From Pseudobdellovibrionaceae bacterium (GTDB lineage Bacteria > Bdellovibrionota > Bdellovibrionia > Bdellovibrionales > UBA1609), in the NCBI GenBank assembly GCA_030591685.1, contig JAUVAX010000024.1:1-37317 (forward strand): a DNA stretch of 37,317 bases, in the 5' to 3' direction. Position 1 is the stretch's first letter, and every line of letters begins with the position of its first letter. The position numbers were made by a program, and so were the translations under genes. Shown piece by piece: positions 21,478 to 27,938 of the stretch. The notes beneath the pieces were generated by a model, which did no database searches, had not been told where the DNA came from, and worked only from the letters and a program-made list of their open reading frames with translations.

Positions 21478-22554
21478 ATGTTGTACAAGTGGTTATATGA
21501 TTTATCCGACACTATTTCTGTCCTTAATATTTTTAGGTACATTACTGTTAGAACCTTTATCACTTTTTTTACATCCTTTATTGTTTGCTGGGCAATGGGT
21601 CCTCTTTTTATCCGTCGGTTAATAAAACGCCAAGTGAGTCAATCTATCCGCGACGACGGGCCGGAGTCCCACAAAAAAAAGGAAGGCACGCCAACTATGG
21701 GTGGTGGTCTTATTTTATTGGGGCTTATTGTTCCGGGCTTGTTATGGATAGACCTTACTAACCCCTTGGTGTGGGGAGCCCTAATTGTAACCCTTTGCTT
21801 TGGTGGCATTGGGTATTGGGATGATTCTTTAAAAATTAATAAAAAAAACACAAAGGGTCTGTCAGGCCGGCTTCGGTTAGTTTTTGAATTTTTGATCAGT
21901 GGTATCGTTGTGGGTTACTTAGTTCATTCAGGGCATATAACAACGACTTTACACATTCCTTTTTTTAAAAATGTTATTTTTAATTTAGGTTGGGCTTATG
22001 TGCCTTTTGCTATGTTTGTTGTTGTTGGCTGTGCGAATGCTGTTAACTTAACAGATGGCCTCGATGGTCTTGCCATTGTCCCGGTGATTGTGTGTGCCGG
22101 TACTTTTATGTTATTTGCCTATGTGGCCGGTCATATTGAGATTGCTGAGTATTTAAATATCCCCTATATTTCAGGCTCTGGTGAGTTAGCTCCTGTCTCA
22201 GCAGCAGTGATAGCTGCGGGGTTAGGGTTTTTATGGTTTAACTCTTATCCAGCACAGGTCTTTATGGGAGATGTAGGTAGTTTAGGTTTAGGTGGGTTTT
22301 TAGGGGTTATGGCTGTGTTGACTAAAAATGAACTTATACTATTGCTTCTTGGTGGCATATTTGTTGTCGAGGCGGTTTCTGTGATCACTCAAGTGGCCTC
22401 ATTTAAGCTCACGGGTAAACGCATTTTTAAGATGGCCCCGATACATCATCATTTTGAATTAAAGGGTATAGATGAAAATAAAATTATTGTGAGGTTTTGG
22501 ATTATATCAATTTTATTAGCCGTTTTAAGTTTAAGTACTTTAAAACTAAGGTAG
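21478..22554 (+). CDS. mraY: phospho-N-acetylmuramoyl-pentapeptide transferase
   Basis: [26 protein letters not shown] and APIHHHFE. Confidence 0.98.
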
Positions 22555-22562
22555 GAGAAAAA

Positions 22563-23948
22563 ATGTTTAATTATCGGGACATAAAAGATAAAAAAGTAAT
22601 GGTCATAGGCCTCGGGCGTACGGGTGTAGCCGTATCACGTTTTTTAGTTTCTAAGGGCGCGAAGGTGACAATTAGTGATCACAAGTCAAAACCTGAGCTA
22701 ACTACTCAACTAGAGGACATTGAAGGTTTAGATGTTGAGTATGATCTTGGGGGACACACTCCTAAGTTATTTTCACAACAAGACTTAATTATTTTAAGCC
22801 CTGGTGTTTCTCCAGCATTAAAAATATTTGATTATGCAAGAAGCCGAGGTGTGACGGTCACTGGTGAATTTGAATTTGCGGCCGCCTGGTTAGATGTCCC
22901 CGTTGTTGCTATTACGGGTACAAACGGTAAATCTTCTGTGTGTCGTATTATAAAAAGTATTTTTGATGAGTCGGGTATCCCCTCATGGCTTGGGGGTAAT
23001 TATGGCTGTCCTTTGAGTGAGTACTTAATACAAGAAAAAAAGGCCGATATAATTATAGCGGAGGTTTCTAGTTTTCAGCTGGAGCTTTGCGAGCAGCTGA
23101 CGCCTAAAAACATTGTATTTACAAATTTGGCTGAAAACCATTTGGACCGTTATAAATCAATGGAAGATTATGTAAATGCAAAGAGAAAAATATTTTTAAA
23201 CACCAGCCAATCAACTACGAGCATGCTTAATGCCGATGACAATGCTGTTGTAGAGTTAGCCCGTGACCCGGCCGTACAAAAGGGGCGGATTTTTTACTTT
23301 TCAAGAAAGCCAGCATTAGAGCCACAAATTATGAATATTGGTGGTGCTATACTTGTTGATAATGAGCTTCGGATCCGAAGGGGCCCAGAGGTTGAGTATT
23401 TTGATGTTTCAAATGTTAAGGCAAGGGGGGCTCATCAGATTGAGAACATAATGGCCGCTGCTTTAGTGACGCTTGAAAATGGAGCTTCAAAGGAGGCTGT
23501 GCAAAAAGTGATTAATACATTCAGGGGCTTACCGCATCGCCTTGAGTATGTGAGAAGAGTTGGCGGGGTTGAGTTTTATAATGACTCAAAGGCGACGAAT
23601 GTGCACGCGGTGGCAAAGGCGCTGGATTGTTATGATGAGAATGTGATTTTAATTATGGGTGGTAAGGATACGAATTTAAACTACGAGCCGTTGAAGGATA
23701 GGGTTCGTAGAAAGGTGAAGACGCTGATCCTTGTGGGTGAGGCGAAGGAGCGTATAAATAGGGACATTGGGGACTTTTCGGAGACGTATCTTATTGGTAC
23801 GTTTGAGGAGGCGGTGTTGATTTCGTATCAGAAGTCGAGGATTGGGGATTGTGTGTTGTTGGCGCCTGGGGCGTCGAGTTTTGATATTTTTGATAGTTTT
23901 GAGGATCGTGGGAACTACTTTAAGGAGCTGGTGAATAAGTTCCAGTAA
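22563..23948 (+). CDS. murD: UDP-MurNAc-L-Ala:D-Glu ligase
   Basis: GLGRTG, SPGV, ITGTNGKS, EVSSFQL, NHLDRY and NDSKATN; start reassigned to ATG 22563 after AGGAG. Confidence 0.97.
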   Translation: MFNYRDIKDKKVMVIGLGRTGVAVSRFLVSKGAKVTISDHKSKPELTTQLEDIEGLDVEYDLGGHTPKLFSQQDLIILSPGVSPALKIFDYARSRGVTVTGEFEFAAAWLDVPVVAITGTNGKSSVCRIIKSIFDESGIPSWLGGNYGCPLSEYLIQEKKADIIIAEVSSFQLELCEQLTPKNIVFTNLAENHLDRYKSMEDYVNAKRKIFLNTSQSTTSMLNADDNAVVELARDPAVQKGRIFYFSRKPALEPQIMNIGGAILVDNELRIRRGPEVEYFDVSNVKARGAHQIENIMAAALVTLENGASKEAVQKVINTFRGLPHRLEYVRRVGGVEFYNDSKATNVHAVAKALDCYDENVILIMGGKDTNLNYEPLKDRVRRKVKTLILVGEAKERINRDIGDFSETYLIGTFEEAVLISYQKSRIGDCVLLAPGASSFDIFDSFEDRGNYFKELVNKFQ

Positions 23949-23959
23949 GACCCAAAGGG

Positions 23960-23981
23960 GCGGCATATATATGTATGCCGC
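23960..23981. repeat. REP-like hairpin
   Basis: GCGGCATA-TATATG-TATGCCGC, a perfect 8-bp stem with no U-tract; degenerate copy CGGCATAT-TTGCC at 24110-24122. Confidence 0.7.
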
Positions 23982-23990
23982 AACCAAAAG

Positions 23991-24008
23991 GGGACGGAGC
24001 TCTTTCCC
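23991..24008. repeat. degenerate palindrome, GGGACGGAG family (left copy)
   Basis: GGGACGGAGCTCTTTCCC differs by two bases from the perfect palindrome GGGACGGAGCTCCGTCCC. Confidence 0.5.
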
Positions 24009-24260
24009 AGCCATTTCAGCTCCTTACGCACACACACCACCCGCTAACCAAGAGATTTCCAAAAAATAACTTATCTATTTCCCAAAGCAGCAAAGCAGGG
24101 TTGACCGGCCGGCATATTTGCCACCATTAACCCTCATGAACCACTTTTTTAAGTTAAAACAAGCTAAACAGCCTAGATCTTATTTGTTTTGATTAAGCCT
24201 CTCCATTGAAGTTACATGAACCGCTTAATTATTTATTTGAATTATTTTGAATTTATTTTT

Positions 24261-25076
24261 TTAAGTTGTATTCAGCTCTGTAAGTTTAAACTGCGCTTGG
24301 TTTATTAGGCTATTAACTTTGCAAACCATCTGATCTTGCCATAGTGGGCTGCCTATGAACTTTTTATAGATCCATTGAGAGCCAAAAACCTCATTTGTTA
24401 AGTACGATAAAAAAAGCTTTCTGTATTTTGACCTTCTTATCGCCATCGTCTTGCCGAGCTCCATGTACCAATCAGGCAGTGTTATGAGCTTAGACCATTC
24501 ATCTTTTATGCCAAAGGCAAAGAATTTATAACTGGAGTACTTAAAGTATTTTAACTTCTCCAGTTTAACCATATTAGCTCTTACTGGATTTGCTTCAATA
24601 TAAAAGTGAACTCTCATTAAGTGATCTGAGTTTTCGATTAATGGGGTTTTAGGGCGTTCGTTTGCAACCTTTCCACTTCGTCTAAAAATTTTATTAAAAG
24701 TAGCTCCAAATTGAGCATGTGACACTCTCATAAAGCTTGAAAGATATGAGGAGCACTCATCATAACTCATCTGCATATGAACGTGATTATCCATTATACA
24801 ATAGGAGTATAAATGGACCTTTGAACTTACGCTTTTGTGGTTGAGTGCATACTTTGTGCACTTCATATAGAGATCCTTGGTCGGGGTGGAGTTGGTAGGT
24901 TCTTGAGATCCGCATGGGAAGATATGAGTGCAAGATTGAGGGAAGGTAGGGAAGGGTTTAAATGGGGTCTGAGGAGGGAGTTGGGCAGGGTGTGTCCGGC
25001 AGGCGGATTTGGCCCACGTATCTGTCCGGGGGGCGGACTCCGTCCCTGTGTGATATTTGGTATTAGTCGTTGGCAT
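24261..25076 (-). CDS. RAYT-like (IS200/Y1 superfamily) HUH transposase, N-terminus aberrant, possible pseudogene
   Basis: YSYCIMDNHVH (HUH), FN..FRRSG, catalytic-Tyr motif FYIEANPVRA and YSSY; recognisable only from about 24878 downward. Confidence 0.8.
   Translation of the reverse strand: MPTTNTKYHTGTESAPRTDTWAKSACRTHPAQLPPQTPFKPFPTFPQSCTHIFPCGSQEPTNSTPTKDLYMKCTKYALNHKSVSSKVHLYSYCIMDNHVHMQMSYDECSSYLSSFMRVSHAQFGATFNKIFRRSGKVANERPKTPLIENSDHLMRVHFYIEANPVRANMVKLEKLKYFKYSSYKFFAFGIKDEWSKLITLPDWYMELGKTMAIRRSKYRKLFLSYLTNEVFGSQWIYKKFIGSPLWQDQMVCKVNSLINQAQFKLTELNTT
24991..25050. repeat. degenerate 30-bp tandem repeat containing the right palindrome copy
   Basis: TGTCCGGCAGGCGGA (24993-25007) and TGTCCGGGGGGCGGA (25023-25037); the second unit forms GGGGCGG-ACT-CCGTCCC, and CTCCGTCCC (25038-25046) is the reverse complement of 23991-23999. 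Confidence 0.55.
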
Positions 25077-25088
25077 TGTTAATCATCA

Positions 25089-25097
25089 TGGTACAAT
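25089..25097 (+). promoter_or_regulatory. extended -10 promoter for ftsW (probably leaderless)
   Basis: TGgTACAAT 8 nt before ATG 25106; no SD. Confidence 0.5.
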
Positions 25098-25105
25098 CTT
25101 TCCAT

Positions 25106-26278
25106 ATGGCTAAAAGATCTAAAGAATTTCAACTTGGGTTTGATAAATCACTTTTGCTAATCACTATTTTTTTGATTGGCCTAGGGCTTGTGCAAGTTTT
25201 TAGCTCAAGTTTTATATTTGCAATTGAAAAGTATGACGATGGGTTTTTCTTTTTTAGAAAACAAGTGTTCTATGCTTTTTTATCAATTTTTGTTCTCATC
25301 GTGACGGCACTCTCCCCATGGAAATATATAAAAACAGCCGGCAAGACCCTATGGGTGTTTGCCTTTTTAGGAGTTTTTTTAACTTTATACTCTGGCCTAG
25401 GAGTTGAGTCCGGTGGTGCCAAAAGGTGGCTTTCGCTGCCCTTTGGGTTTAGAGTTGAGCCAGCTGAGGCTTTAAAAATTTGCTACCCCTTTTGGGTCGG
25501 ATTTTTTTTACACTGGTCCCCCAAATTAAAATCAAGCTTTAAGGTGGGAGCACAATTTTTAATGTTATCACTGCCCTTAGTTTTTTTACTACAACAACCT
25601 GACTTTGGTACTTTCGTTATTTGCATAGTTGTAATTATGAGTATGTACTTTGTTTTTGGCCTCTCGTTAAAGCACATATTTGTTGGGTCCATTGTTTCAA
25701 TATCAGGGTTCGCAGCACTAATTTTAACGTCTCCTTATAGGCTCTCTCGTGTGCAGGCCTTTTTAAACCCTTGGGCAGACCCCTCTAATAAAGGCTTTCA
25801 GGTGATTCAAAGCATGTTAAGTGTTCATGCGGGCGGATTATTTGGTAAAGGGCTTGGGCAAGGGCAGGCAAAATTATTTTTCTTACCAGAGGCGCACACA
25901 GATTTTATATTTGCCATTTTTGCCGAAGAATGGGGGTTTATTGGTGTCCTTGGAATCTTATTACTCTACGCATTTTTAATTTATAACGGACTTAAAATTA
26001 CAGCTCAATGTAAAGACTTGTATGCTAAATCTGTGAGCATAGGCATTACAATGGTCATTGCTTTAAACATATTTGTTAATATCGGTGTTGTATTTGGTTT
26101 GTTGCCGCCAAAAGGGTTAACTTTACCATTTATGAGCTATGGCGGTAGCTCGTTATTAACAATGAGTTTTGGCGTAGGAGTTTTACTGTGTATTAGCCGT
26201 CATATAAATACAGACCCTGGCTTTGGGCGACGTAAGCACTCAGGTCGATACTATAAAATTAATGGAGTCTTTTCTTGA
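25106..26278 (+). CDS. ftsW: SEDS peptidoglycan polymerase FtsW
   Basis: GAKRW, QPDFGT, GFQVIQS, LPEAHTDF, EEWG and GLTLPFMSYGGS; start reassigned to ATG 25106. Confidence 0.96.
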   Translation: MAKRSKEFQLGFDKSLLLITIFLIGLGLVQVFSSSFIFAIEKYDDGFFFFRKQVFYAFLSIFVLIVTALSPWKYIKTAGKTLWVFAFLGVFLTLYSGLGVESGGAKRWLSLPFGFRVEPAEALKICYPFWVGFFLHWSPKLKSSFKVGAQFLMLSLPLVFLLQQPDFGTFVICIVVIMSMYFVFGLSLKHIFVGSIVSISGFAALILTSPYRLSRVQAFLNPWADPSNKGFQVIQSMLSVHAGGLFGKGLGQGQAKLFFLPEAHTDFIFAIFAEEWGFIGVLGILLLYAFLIYNGLKITAQCKDLYAKSVSIGITMVIALNIFVNIGVVFGLLPPKGLTLPFMSYGGSSLLTMSFGVGVLLCISRHINTDPGFGRRKHSGRYYKINGVFS

Positions 26279-27485: not shown

Positions 27486-27938
27486 TCAGGTCTCTTGGGC
27501 GATGAGCTTATTAATGAGTATTTCATTTTCTGGGGACTTGTTGATAAATTTAAATCCTAAAATTTGCGTTTTAAGTTTTTCATCTTTTAGTGTCCGAACA
27601 AGTCGAGCCGCGAGGGAAAACTCAGGGGTAGTCTCTGAGGGGCTAATATTAATTTTATATATATTATCTAACTCAAAGACCCCCTCAAAGCTGTAAATAC
27701 AAACGCCATGAGTGTTTAAGTCAATGCAGTTTCCATCAAGTGCTAAGCCGGTAGAAGAGTCAACTACGTTCATTTTATGCATAAATACATAGCGCTCACT
27801 TGTTCTTTTATTGCGATCCTTTGGAGAGGGGAGGGCCCCCTCTAAATTGGTGATAACCTCTATGGCATCACTTTTTTGATGAATCTCATTGGCAATAAAT
27901 TTTTTTAATTCTTCGATCTCATTGATATTTGAGCCCAT
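27486..27938 (-). CDS. PilZ domain protein
   Basis: RTSER (RxxxR) followed by DLNTHG (variant of D/NxSxxG) and terminal LGFKF. Confidence 0.75.
   Translation of the reverse strand: MGSNINEIEELKKFIANEIHQKSDAIEVITNLEGALPSPKDRNKRTSERYVFMHKMNVVDSSTGLALDGNCIDLNTHGVCIYSFEGVFELDNIYKINISPSETTPEFSLAARLVRTLKDEKLKTQILGFKFINKSPENEILINKLIAQET

What the first reader, a model, noticed from the sequence alone, without database searches (positions are those of the whole stretch)
23520..23948. 3' end of essential murD is synonymously rewritten to G/T-ending codons next to a transposase-associated hairpin
Seen: of the last 63 sense codons (23757-23945), 58 end in G/T, 5 in C and none in A. From 23520 onward all 10 Lys codons are AAG and all 11 Glu codons are GAG. 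The 5' part of the same gene and neighbouring co-oriented genes use A-ending codons freely (for example ATA AAA GAT AAA AAA GTA). The protein remains a normal MurD, and the bias strengthens toward the hairpin at 23960. Established: C->T and A->G are the deamination signatures of single-stranded DNA, and HUH enzymes nick ssDNA at hairpins. Inference: repeated nicking, ssDNA exposure or error-prone repair at the palindrome has mutated about 0.4 kb of flanking host DNA, with selection keeping only silent changes. That would be a local mutator footprint of a RAYT/REP system.
Basis: partly seen in the sequence, partly recalled or inferred. Interest (0 to 1): 0.85.

Follow-up and report, generated by a model that had tools for sequence, protein, structure and literature searches.

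The report
Wobble-G recoding of murD's 3' end
The last 140 codons of the essential cell-wall gene murD use a G-ending codon almost wherever the protein allows it, right beside a decayed IS200/RAYT-type mobile element; the pattern is real and recurs more weakly at other copies of that element in this genome, but it is not the DNA-deamination scar first proposed.

Summary
The last 63 murD codons end in G 32, T 26, C 5 and A 0, and no other place in the 2.66-Mb genome matches this.

The description "G/T-ending" misleads. Two-fold pyrimidine sites keep the normal T:C ratio. Every two-fold purine site is G (23 of 23). Four-fold sites go to G (17 of 21 in the last 63 codons), not to T. First and second codon positions, the direction of amino-acid changes and their number are all normal. 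So this is neither a C->T plus A->G deamination footprint nor a sign of a raised mutation rate.

The link to the mobile element holds in this genome. Six of 12 genes whose 3' end points at a copy of the same HUH (RAYT/IS200-like) element lie above the genome's 99th percentile for wobble G. It does not hold at 44 such genes next to related elements in other Bdellovibrio-like genomes.

The hairpin at 23960 is unique, not a repeat. The true terminal repeat is GGGACGGAGC at 23991-24001. The adjacent transposase copy is frameshifted.

My best reading (35%) is selection on nucleic-acid composition: a G-loaded sense strand gives a C-rich, G-poor antisense RNA resembling a Rho loading site. A G-directed repair bias remains a live rival.

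The parts
22563..23948 (+). murD (UDP-N-acetylmuramoylalanine--D-glutamate ligase), 461 aa, intact
   Evidence: Pfam MurD-like_N, Mur_ligase_M and Mur_ligase_C. 57-77% identical to murD of 30 relatives, and the nearest relative is the same along the whole gene.
23520..23945 (+). Wobble-G patch: synonymous sites loaded with G. The core is 23757-23945, with no A-ending codon.
   Evidence: Two-fold purine sites are G 23, A 0. Four-fold sites are G 35 of 54. Two-fold pyrimidine sites are unchanged.
23676..24014 (-). Antisense open frame of 112 codons, in exact reverse-codon register with murD; read as a by-product
   Evidence: In this register only TTA, CTA and TCA in murD give antisense stops, so loss of A-ending codons opens the frame. 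No Pfam family. The patch runs about 150 bases beyond the frame's end.
23960..23981 (.). Hairpin (11-base arms, 91% complementary) 12 bases after the murD stop; unique in the genome
   Evidence: the repeat finder pair I21. A genome scan allowing up to 5 mismatches finds only this copy. No T-run follows on either strand.
23991..24001 (+). 3'-end terminal repeat of the element (GGGACGGAGCT), reading inwards
   Evidence: Aligns with the conserved GGCTCCGTCAC end of the other copies. It is part of a motif family with 29 exact copies in the genome against about 1.5 expected.
24002..24180 (-). Inner 3' arm of the element: G-rich in the transposase sense, C-rich on the + strand
   Evidence: 78-base windows have + strand C 21-28 and G 10-13. 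The same make-up is seen in the other copies.
24264..24914 (-). Decayed RAYT/IS200-like Y1 HUH transposase gene (HUH 'DNHVH', 'YIEANPVRA')
   Evidence: It matches residues 22-239 of an intact copy at 72%. It lacks about 65 bases that encode QGFIHKFWRCQNREFLLKAAS, so the native ATG (24915-24913) is out of frame. Pfam Y1_Tnp scores 16.5-20 bits, below the 23-bit cut-off.
24916..25035 (-). C-rich, G-poor leader of the element (up to 47% C and 6% G in the transposase sense)
   Evidence: top 0.006-0.04% of all 78-base windows. It is present in all aligned copies.
25036..25046 (-). 5'-end terminal repeat of the element (GGGACGGAGTC), inverted relative to 23991-24001
25070..25097 (+). Promoter-like site TTGGCA-16-TACAAT with a TG before the second hexamer, just upstream of ftsW
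   Evidence: 10 of 12 matches. This is a consensus match only; shuffled sequence gives 4.6 sites in the region.
25106..26278 (+). ftsW, pointing away from the element; no composition anomaly
   Evidence: Pfam FTSW_RODA_SPOVE. C at C-capable sites in the first 60 codons is 8/44.

Best explanation
The patch is a product of selection on synonymous sites, not a mutation scar. After an IS200/RAYT-like element settled between murD and ftsW, the last roughly 140 codons of murD drifted under selection to G-ending codons wherever G is allowed.

This gives a sense strand that is G-rich and C-poor. Any RNA read outwards from the element, antisense to murD, is then 31-37% C and 8-14% G over about 390 bases. 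That is the make-up of a Rho loading (rut) site.

The proposed working is as follows. Transcripts leaving the element meet no intrinsic terminator at its end. They are caught by Rho soon after entering murD, so they neither collide with nor pair with expression of the essential murD-ftsW operon.

The element's own arms are built the mirror way, C-rich on RNA read inwards at both ends. Each junction would then act as a two-way insulator.

What is shown: the composition, its restriction to synonymous sites, its gradient, and its recurrence at other copies in this genome.

For: 1. The pattern is specific to G, as a C-loaded antisense RNA needs.
- Two-fold purine sites are G 23, A 0.
- Four-fold sites are G 17 of 21 in the last 63 codons.
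- Sites that cannot take G keep the normal T:C ratio.
- The 81% G exceeds the relatives' purine share at the same columns (41%, p = 2e-4).
- By my own reasoning, it also exceeds the 50% ceiling that a pure A->G excess could reach under equal remaining rates.

2. Nothing points to a raised or biased mutation supply at constrained sites.
- G and A at codon positions 1 and 2 lie within the range of 19 relatives.
- Lineage-specific replacements are not directional; R352K runs against the trend.
- They are not more frequent in the patch: 8 against 29 in the rest of the gene.
- The 42-base spacer between the stop codon and the terminal repeat is not G-rich.

3. The pattern recurs and depends on gene direction.
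- 6 of 12 genes whose 3' end faces an element copy are at or above the 99th percentile.
- Several show gradients towards the element.
- murD, ung and methyltransferase orthologues in relatives lack the rise.
- 3 of 4 genes that point away, ftsW among them, show nothing.

4. The antisense RNA over 23556-23945 lies in the top 0.07-0.9% of genome windows for C excess. The element's leader lies in the top 0.006-0.04%.

5. A Rho gene is present.

6. Passages of PMC13323073 report three things for Bacillus subtilis. Rho terminates C/U-rich antisense RNA. Avoidance of Rho shapes synonymous codon choice. Recoding 5-8% of a gene's sites suffices to create a Rho target.

7. The abstract of PMC11774165, seen in a search listing only, says an IS element drives an antisense RNA against a neighbouring gene.
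Against: - There are no RNA data. Two metatranscriptome runs of the same study hold none of the stretch, so outward transcription is unshown.
- For the three affected genes that lie upstream of the transposase in the same direction, an outward transcript needs an unproven antisense promoter inside the element.
- A Rho target should also be G-poor. Yet sense C is not depleted at two-fold pyrimidine sites.
- Convergent gene pairs in general show no such rise: mean change 0.000 in 679 pairs against 0.007 in 1,371 tandem pairs.
- 44 genes facing related elements in other genomes show none either: mean -0.02, maximum +0.18. The cause must therefore include something particular to this lineage.
- Half of the facing genes in this genome (6 of 12) are unaffected.
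- Driving some 60 weakly selected sites almost to fixation asks for strong or long-lasting selection.
- The set of 12 was listed after I had seen the top of the ranking.
Confidence: 0.35

Rival explanations
1. A local, strand-specific repair or synthesis bias towards G. The element's HUH enzyme, or a host nuclease acting at the terminal repeat, repeatedly nicks the DNA. The strand that ends 3' at the nick is chewed back a few hundred bases. A polymerase that tends to put in dGTP then refills it (G opposite T most often, then opposite A, then opposite G). Purifying selection leaves only silent changes.
For: - The gradient decays with distance from the element end.
- The association is with full or remnant transposase copies, not with solo repeats or with convergent genes in general.
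- The apparent order of loss is A first, then T, then C in the pooled weaker patches. Four-fold A falls from 0.29 to 0.16, T from 0.37 to 0.30 and C from 0.15 to 0.14, with C/T sites untouched (I chose those patches after the fact).
- The strongest patches lie beside the most diverged or decayed copies: C94, C4, C47, C49 and C73.
- One gene that points away (C35:938-1762) is C-rich and has 0 G at 42 G-capable sites in its first 62 codons, the mirror image.
Against: - No rise in G or fall in A at codon positions 1 and 2.
- No excess and no direction in lineage-specific amino-acid changes.
- The unconstrained spacer nearest the supposed nick is not G-rich.
- ftsW and two other genes that point away show no mirror effect. 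The fourth is C3-rich along its whole length.
- The transposase copy beside murD is broken.
- No effect at 44 genes beside related elements elsewhere.
- I know of no bacterial process with an N->G spectrum (recalled; not searched beyond).
Confidence: 0.25
2. Selection for RNA pairing. The G-rich end of the murD mRNA pairs with the C-rich arm of the element that follows it on the same transcript. This either masks a Rho loading site so that transcription can reach ftsW, or gives the mRNA a stable 3' duplex.
For: - In all six affected genes the transcript would read G-rich coding end, then terminal repeat, then C-rich arm.
- G is the only base that pairs with C.
- In predicted folds 45 of 116 arm bases pair with the murD end. 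Under 60 recodings with genome-typical codons the figure is 21 +/- 13, and 3% of recodings reach the native value.
- The strongest case sits in an essential operon that must be read across a 1.15-kb insert.
Against: - There is no sequence-specific complementarity.
- The fold energy is only marginally below that of permuted synonymous codons: -127 against -119 +/- 4, with 5% of permutations as low. Inter-segment pairs are not higher: 55 against 58 +/- 10.
- Local alignment of the flank to the reverse complement of the arm equals permuted controls in 4 of 4 loci.
- The patch (about 430 bases) is twice as long as the arm (about 190).
- Translating ribosomes would open the pairing.
Confidence: 0.15
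3. One reading: single-stranded DNA exposed at the hairpin suffers C->T and A->G deamination, leaving a keto-rich footprint.
For: - A-ending codons are lost and G-ending codons gained.
- The polarity fits: the strand running 5'->3' towards the element is the enriched one.
Against: - No C->T shift at two-fold pyrimidine sites: 29:10 in the patch against 47:16 upstream.
- Four-fold sites go to G (17 of 21), not to T.
- Cytosine deaminates faster than adenine (established chemistry), yet the 5 C-ending codons survive while A is gone.
- The hairpin is unique in the genome.
Confidence: 0.03
4. Translation-level selection: a run of rare G-ending codons (GCG, ACG, TCG, CCG, AAG) slows ribosomes at the end of genes that abut the element.
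For: The preferred codons in the patch are among the rarest in the genome: GCG 12%, ACG 12%, TCG 8%, CCG 12% and AAG 29% of their families.
Against: - Other rare codons that do not end in G (CTA, CTC, GTC, GGA, TCC) are not used in the patch, so rarity is not the rule.
- CGG, the rarest Arg codon, is also unused there, which argues against rarity but sits awkwardly with a simple G rule.
- No known reason links slow decoding to a neighbouring element.
Confidence: 0.05
5. Foreign or chimeric DNA, or a sequencing artefact.
For: The genome is a 98-contig assembly, and the only run that holds the stretch covers it at depth 3-5.
Against: - The change is gradual.
- It lies inside a single independently built contig (23217-23632) and is bridged to the element by another (23910-24236).
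- The encoded segment is most similar to the same nearest relative as the rest of the gene: 0.82-0.86 identity.
- Random base-calling errors cannot respect codon positions.
- No organism among the 19 genome and 31 metagenome relatives uses such codons.
Confidence: 0.03

Closest known systems
Rho-driven constraints on synonymous composition (purine-rich genes, pyrimidine-rich antisense RNA terminated by Rho; Bacillus subtilis, PMC13323073, passages read)
   Same: Composition at silent sites is set by what it does to the RNA. C-rich antisense RNA is the target. A few per cent of synonymous changes suffice to create or remove a target.
   Different: That effect is genome-wide, favours A as well as G, and is not tied to any element. 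Here it is local (0.1-0.4 kb), graded, G-only with A eliminated, and sits at junctions with one mobile element family in one genome. No termination has been measured here.
REP/RAYT systems and IS200/IS605 elements (HUH Y1 transposases acting on single-stranded hairpins; PMC2817692, PMC5581495 and PMC3479197, abstracts seen in the listing)
   Same: An HUH motif and a conserved Tyr-bearing helix. A gene flanked by short inverted repeats that also occur alone in the genome. Placement just past stop codons.
   Different: There are eight copies plus remnants rather than the single copy typical of RAYTs. The Pfam match is below its cut-off. The arms are long and C- or G-rich. None of what I saw (those abstracts, and the titles listed) mentions altered codon usage in neighbouring genes.
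Replication- or single-strand-associated skew (G>C and T>A on the strand that spends more time single-stranded, as in bacterial leading strands and the vertebrate mitochondrial heavy strand; recalled, not from a call)
   Same: A strand-specific excess of G at silent sites, with a polarity set by a fixed point in the DNA.
   Different: Those skews come with a C->T gain, which is absent here. They span kilobases to megabases. They do not drive A to zero at wobble positions.
Outward transcription from insertion sequences giving antisense RNA against neighbouring genes (Bordetella pertussis, PMC11774165; abstract in the listing)
   Same: It supplies the missing actor of my model: an element-borne promoter reading into a converging host gene.
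   Different: No host-side counter-adaptation by recoding is mentioned in that abstract. Nothing shows such a promoter in the element studied here.

Membership tests
RAYT / IS200-like Y1 HUH transposase | HUH motif (His-hydrophobic-His) on a beta strand | tested here: met
   DNHVH in the window copy and DNHAH/DNHTH in the seven others; the columns are invariant in the alignments.
RAYT / IS200-like Y1 HUH transposase | Conserved catalytic Tyr helix (the RAYT-type 'Y-I-x-x-N-P-V-R-A' signature; motif recalled) | tested here: met
   FYIEANPVRA is present in all copies; Y127, I128, E129, A130, N131 and P132 are invariant. Catalysis itself was not tested.
RAYT / IS200-like Y1 HUH transposase | Significant match to the Pfam Y1_Tnp model (PF01797) | tested here: inconclusive
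   An intact copy scores 20.0 bits (E = 8e-4) and the window copy 16.5 bits. The curated cut-off is 23 bits.
RAYT / IS200-like Y1 HUH transposase | Gene flanked by inverted copies of a short repeat that also occurs elsewhere in the genome (REP-like) | tested here: met
   G[TG]GACGGAG[TC]C reads inwards at both ends of the copies. There are 29 exact copies in the genome against about 1.5 expected.
RAYT (domesticated, as opposed to an insertion sequence) | Typically one copy per genome (PMC5581495, abstract in the listing) | tested here: not met
   Eight copies at 66-95% protein identity, plus three fragments. Related genomes also hold many copies. It behaves more like an IS.
Single-strand DNA deamination footprint | C->T gain at sites where C and T are synonymous | tested here: not met
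   T:C is 29:10 in the patch, 47:16 upstream and 65% T genome-wide. The pooled other patches show 0.70 against 0.70.
Single-strand DNA deamination footprint | Four-fold sites split into G (from A) and T (from C) in the proportions of the starting purines and pyrimidines | tested here: not met
   G 17, T 4, A 0, C 0. Relatives have 41% purine at the same columns (p = 2e-4).
Rho loading (rut-like) region on the antisense RNA | C-rich, G-poor RNA over about 80 bases or more | tested here: met
   Ten successive 78-base windows spanning 23556-23945 have C 31-37% and G 8-14%, in the top 0.07-0.9% of 5.3 million windows.
Rho loading (rut-like) region on the antisense RNA | The organism has Rho | tested here: met
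   PF07497 scores 121.8 bits at C86:53876-54094, in an open frame of 568 codons.
Rho loading (rut-like) region on the antisense RNA | An antisense transcript exists and ends there in a Rho-dependent way | not testable with these tools
   No RNA holder of the stretch was found.
Diversity-generating retroelement target | A template repeat copy of the variable region, plus adenine-specific changes at coding positions | tested here: not met
   There is no second copy of the murD end in the genome (blastn). The changes are silent only.

The most novel reading that the evidence does not exclude
Host genes can evolve a local transcription insulator by silent recoding. Where a mobile element with outward-reading transcription lands beside a gene that points at it, the gene's last 0.1-0.4 kb is rewritten at wobble positions to G. 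Antisense RNA then becomes a strong Rho substrate, mirroring the C-rich inward-reading arms that the element itself carries. The murD case would be the saturated end state, with A-ending codons extinct over 63 codons.
Probability: 0.3. Interest if true: 0.8.

Novelty: new variant of a known kind. Interest (0 to 1): 0.6.

Why it matters
Silent sites are usually treated as near-neutral, or as shaped by genome-wide forces such as mutation bias, tRNA supply and, recently, Rho avoidance. Here about 60 silent sites in one essential gene have been driven almost to fixation over 0.4 kb, with a gradient anchored at a mobile-element junction. Weaker copies of the pattern sit at other junctions in the same genome.

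If selection did this, it is a visible record of conflict management between a host gene and a neighbouring element. It would also be a natural experiment on how much composition alone can control transcription. If a repair process did it, it would be a mutation spectrum (N->G on one strand) not known to me.

Either way there is a practical point. Local codon-usage outliers next to insertion sequences need not mean foreign DNA.

Tried and rejected
- **Keto-skew reading.** A sliding G+T fraction puts the patch in the top 0.1% of 200-base windows. Codon classes then show that the signal is G only.
- **Long inverted repeat between the murD end and the insert.** Only short, weak pairs were found.
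- **Quasi-palindrome or template-switch correction of the flank against the element arm.** Local alignment scores equal permuted controls in 4 of 4 loci. The fold energy is only marginal against permuted synonymous codons.
- **Overlapping antisense gene.** The 112-codon frame has no Pfam family, is explained by the loss of TTA/CTA/TCA codons, and is shorter than the patch.
- **Foreign origin.** Segment-wise identity keeps the same nearest relative.
- **General effect of convergent transcription.** None.
- **General effect of this element family.** None at 44 facing and 27 away-pointing genes in 46 of 49 loci from other genomes. The 3 shortest matches were left out. The six loci in relatives G010 and G030 show at most a mild rise.
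- **Close strains for polarising changes.** The metagenome scan gave nothing above 77% protein identity. Of the 37 loci taken for this count (L021-L057, of 50 returned), 31 were counted, 2 were partial and 4 were not reached because the script stopped.
- **Rfam.** No match in 23300-25300.
- **RNA evidence.** No RNA holder was listed, and the two metatranscriptome runs laid cover only a conserved piece near 22414-22466 at 90-95% likeness.
- **Earlier notes of this scan.** None near the finding.
- **Literature.** Four searches listed no title on codon bias next to REP, RAYT or IS elements. Only titles, the abstracts shown and the passages of one paper were read.
Full report
**What is there**

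The window carries a cell-wall and division gene cluster in the order murE, murF, mraY, murD, ftsW, murG, murC, murB, ddl (Pfam). murD is 22563-23948 on the + strand and encodes 461 aa. A 1.15-kb insert lies between its stop codon and the ftsW start at 25106.

On the minus strand the insert carries a gene with the HUH motif DNHVH and the helix FYIEANPVRA. This is a divergent Y1 HUH transposase of the IS200/RAYT kind. Its Pfam Y1_Tnp score is 16.5-20 bits, below the 23-bit cut-off.

Earlier notes of this scan, on other pieces of the genome, call the organism a Bdellovibrio/Bacteriovorax-like predator. The record titles of genomes that hold related elements are Bdellovibrionales assemblies.

- The last 63 sense codons end in G 32, T 26, C 5 and A 0.
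- From 23520 on, all 10 Lys codons are AAG and all 11 Glu codons are GAG.
- The genome has 2.66 Mb, 98 contigs and 40% G+C.
- I called 2,274 ORFs greedily and slid a 63-codon window over them. Of 623,696 windows, this is the only one without an A-ending codon. murD is the only ORF reaching 55 or more G/T endings.
- murD of 19 relatives from other genera (57-77% protein identity) has A at 8-29% of third positions in the same stretch.
- So do 31 metagenome relatives, at 11-30%. Of the 37 loci taken for this count (L021-L057, of the 50 returned), 2 were partial and 4 were not reached.
- The encoded segment is, if anything, better conserved than the rest of the gene: 0.82-0.86 identity to the nearest relative, which is also the nearest for the rest.
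- Logan contigs of the one public run that holds the stretch reproduce 23217-23632, 23648-23936 and 23910-24236 without a difference, at depth 3-5. That run may be the source sample. It checks the assembly, not the biology.

**The pattern is G at wobble positions, not G+T**

I sorted codons by what is synonymous.

| Site class | Patch (codons 320-461) | Comparison |
|---|---|---|
| Two-fold pyrimidine | T:C 29:10 | 47:16 upstream; 65% T genome-wide |
| Two-fold purine | G:A 23:0 | 28:27 upstream; 38% G genome-wide |
| Four-fold, codons 320-398 | G 18, T 10, C 3, A 2 | genome: G 17%, T 35%, A 24%, C 24% |
| Four-fold, last 63 codons | G 17, T 4, A 0, C 0 | genome: G 17%, T 35%, A 24%, C 24% |

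- At the same alignment columns the relatives have 41% purine. The 81% G therefore cannot come from A->G alone (p = 2e-4).
- By my own reasoning, a simple four-state model with only A->G raised tops out near 50% G.
- The favoured codons (GCG, ACG, TCG, CCG, AAG) are among the rarest in the genome. Rare codons that do not end in G are not used.

**No sign of a mutator at constrained sites**

- G+T at codon positions 1 and 2 equals that of the relatives.
- So do G and A taken separately.
- The 19 residues where this murD departs from the majority of relatives show no direction. R352K, A421S, M442I and E448D run against G. K332R, I381V and S434A run with it.
- Lineage-specific replacements at well-conserved columns number 8 in the patch and 29 in the rest. 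That ratio is at the low end of the 19 relatives.
- The spacer between the stop codon and the element is not G-rich.

**The element**

- The genome holds eight copies at 66-95% protein identity to one another, plus three fragments.
- Aligning seven of them defines the ends: inverted copies of G[TG]GACGGAG[TC]C that read inwards.
- That motif has 29 exact copies in the genome, against about 1.5 expected.
- Behind the 5' repeat every copy has a C-rich, G-poor leader. In front of the 3' repeat every copy has a G-rich arm.
- In the window the repeats lie at 25036-25046 and 23991-24001.
- The hairpin at 23960-23981 that the finding names lies outside the repeat and occurs nowhere else in the genome.
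- The window copy lacks about 65 bases that encode a conserved N-terminal strand. Its native ATG (24915) is out of frame with the catalytic body. The long ORF listed is open only because C/A-rich sequence has few stop codons.

**The pattern recurs in this genome**

I used the index "G at sites where G is synonymous". murD tops the genome at 35 of 40, against a mean of 9.4 and sd of 3.06. The next gene is a sigma-70-like factor at C10:18213-18824, with 29. Its stop codon lies 53 bases from the 5' repeat of another copy; contig C10 ends in the sequence with which C4 begins.

I then listed every ORF whose 3' end faces a transposase copy or remnant. There are 12, and their G shares in the last 60 codons are:

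| Gene | G share |
|---|---|
| murD | 0.89 |
| C10 sigma factor | 0.71 |
| C47 methyltransferase | 0.52 |
| C49 ung | 0.49 |
| C73 | 0.49 |
| C71 | 0.42 |
| remaining six | 0.31, 0.27, 0.26, 0.23, 0.15, 0.07 |

- Six are at or above the 99th percentile (0.425) of 2,116 other ORFs (binomial p = 9e-10). Without murD it is 5 of 11.
- I drew up this list after seeing the ranking, so the p-values are descriptive.
- Several of the six show a gradient towards the element.
- In the pooled weaker patches, which I chose after the fact, C/T sites are again untouched: 0.70 T against 0.70.
- Orthologues of ung (11 relatives) and of the methyltransferase (10 relatives) lack the terminal rise.
- The strongest effects lie beside the most diverged or broken copies. 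The four young copies (93-95% alike) have one affected neighbour (C71) among the four facing genes seen.
- Of four genes that point away from an element end, three show nothing, ftsW among them.
- The fourth (C35:938-1762) has no G at 42 G-capable sites and 50% C in its first codons. It is C3-rich throughout, so it is ambiguous.
- In C47, C49 and C71 the host stop codon lies inside the terminal repeat.

**The pattern does not generalise**

- Convergent gene pairs as a class show no terminal rise: 0.000 against 0.007 for tandem pairs.
- Solo repeats show none.
- The genome collection holds 49 loci with related transposases in other Bdellovibrio-like assemblies. I analysed 46.
- The 44 facing genes there have a mean change of -0.02 and a maximum of +0.18. 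The 27 genes that point away show nothing.
- Six loci in two relatives are at most mildly raised.
- Whatever acts here needs something particular to this lineage, or much time.

**Reading**

A process that touches only silent sites, drives them to one base, and leaves no trace at replacement sites or in the nearest non-coding spacer looks more like selection on the nucleic acid than like a mutation supply.

G on the sense strand means C on any RNA read outwards from the element. Over 23556-23945 that RNA has 31-37% C and 8-14% G, in the top 0.07-0.9% of all 78-base windows. The genome has Rho.

Passages of a 2026 paper (PMC13323073) report the following for Bacillus subtilis:
- Rho terminates C/U-rich antisense RNA.
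- This pressure shapes synonymous codon choice.
- Recoding 5-8% of a gene's sites can create a Rho target.

The element's own arms are C-rich on inward-reading RNA at both ends. Each junction then looks like a two-way insulator. I give this 35%.

Its weak points:
- There are no RNA data.
- It needs an unproven outward promoter at the element's 5' end.
- Sense C is not depleted at two-fold sites.
- The effect is absent elsewhere.

A variant in which the G-rich mRNA end pairs with the C-rich arm fits the composition but has no sequence-specific support; I give it 15%. A G-directed repair bias at a recurrent nick would explain the gradient and the tie to transposase-bearing copies. It conflicts with the clean replacement sites and the spacer; I give it 25%. 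The deamination model as written is contradicted by the codon classes (3%).

**Verdict**

- The mechanism is open.

It is a striking single-genome phenomenon. I class it as a new variant of known composition-level constraints rather than a new kind of system.

Noticed in passing
window 24264-25076 (-): The transposase copy beside murD has lost about 65 bases encoding the conserved N-terminal strand (QGFIHKFWRCQNREFLLKAAS in the other copies). Its native start codon at 24915 is out of frame. The 271-codon ORF is open only because the C/A-rich leader has few stop codons.
   Followed up: yes
window 25070-25097 (+): A near-consensus promoter-like site (TTGGCA, 16 bases, TACAAT, with TG before the second hexamer) sits between the element's 5' repeat and the ftsW start codon at 25106. 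It could drive ftsW and the downstream genes now that the insert separates them from murD.
   Followed up: no
genome contigs C47:46481, C49:5176, C71:4510 (loci L082, L081, L113): In three host genes the stop codon lies inside the element's terminal repeat (TAG-TGACGGAG, or TGA-CGGAG). The element sits exactly at, or slightly inside, the gene end. The ung product appears a few residues short at its C-terminus, judged against a recalled E. coli Ung sequence (not from a call).
   Followed up: partly
genome, 29 places: The 11-base terminal repeat G[TG]GACGGAG[TC]C also occurs alone or in pairs away from any transposase gene, for example twice 23 bases apart at C47:121412-121445. This is a REP/REPIN-like population. 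Several contigs break at the elements: C10/C4 share about 59 bases across the break, and C35/C71 each end inside a transposase copy.
   Followed up: partly
genome contig C10:18830-18887 and C4:1-19: Three direct copies of CACAAAGAGGGAC precede the 5' terminal repeat of the C4 copy.
   Followed up: no
genome contig C35:938-1762 (+): A crotonase-fold gene (MenB-like by eye; no family search was run) diverges from an element's 5' end. It has no G at 42 G-capable silent sites and about 50% C in its first 60 codons, the mirror image of the murD pattern. The whole gene is C3-rich.
   Followed up: partly
genome contig C21:about 1215-1400: The 3' end of another element copy abuts what looks by eye like a tRNA gene on the minus strand; it was not checked with the tRNA tool.
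   Followed up: no
window 27486-27938 (-): A PilZ-domain gene lies on the opposite strand between murG and murC, inside the otherwise co-directional cell-wall cluster.
   Followed up: no
genome contig C86:53876-54094 (locus L111): The Rho gene lies in an open frame of 568 codons, longer than the roughly 419 residues of E. coli Rho (recalled). This suggests an inserted or extended N-terminal region.
   Followed up: no
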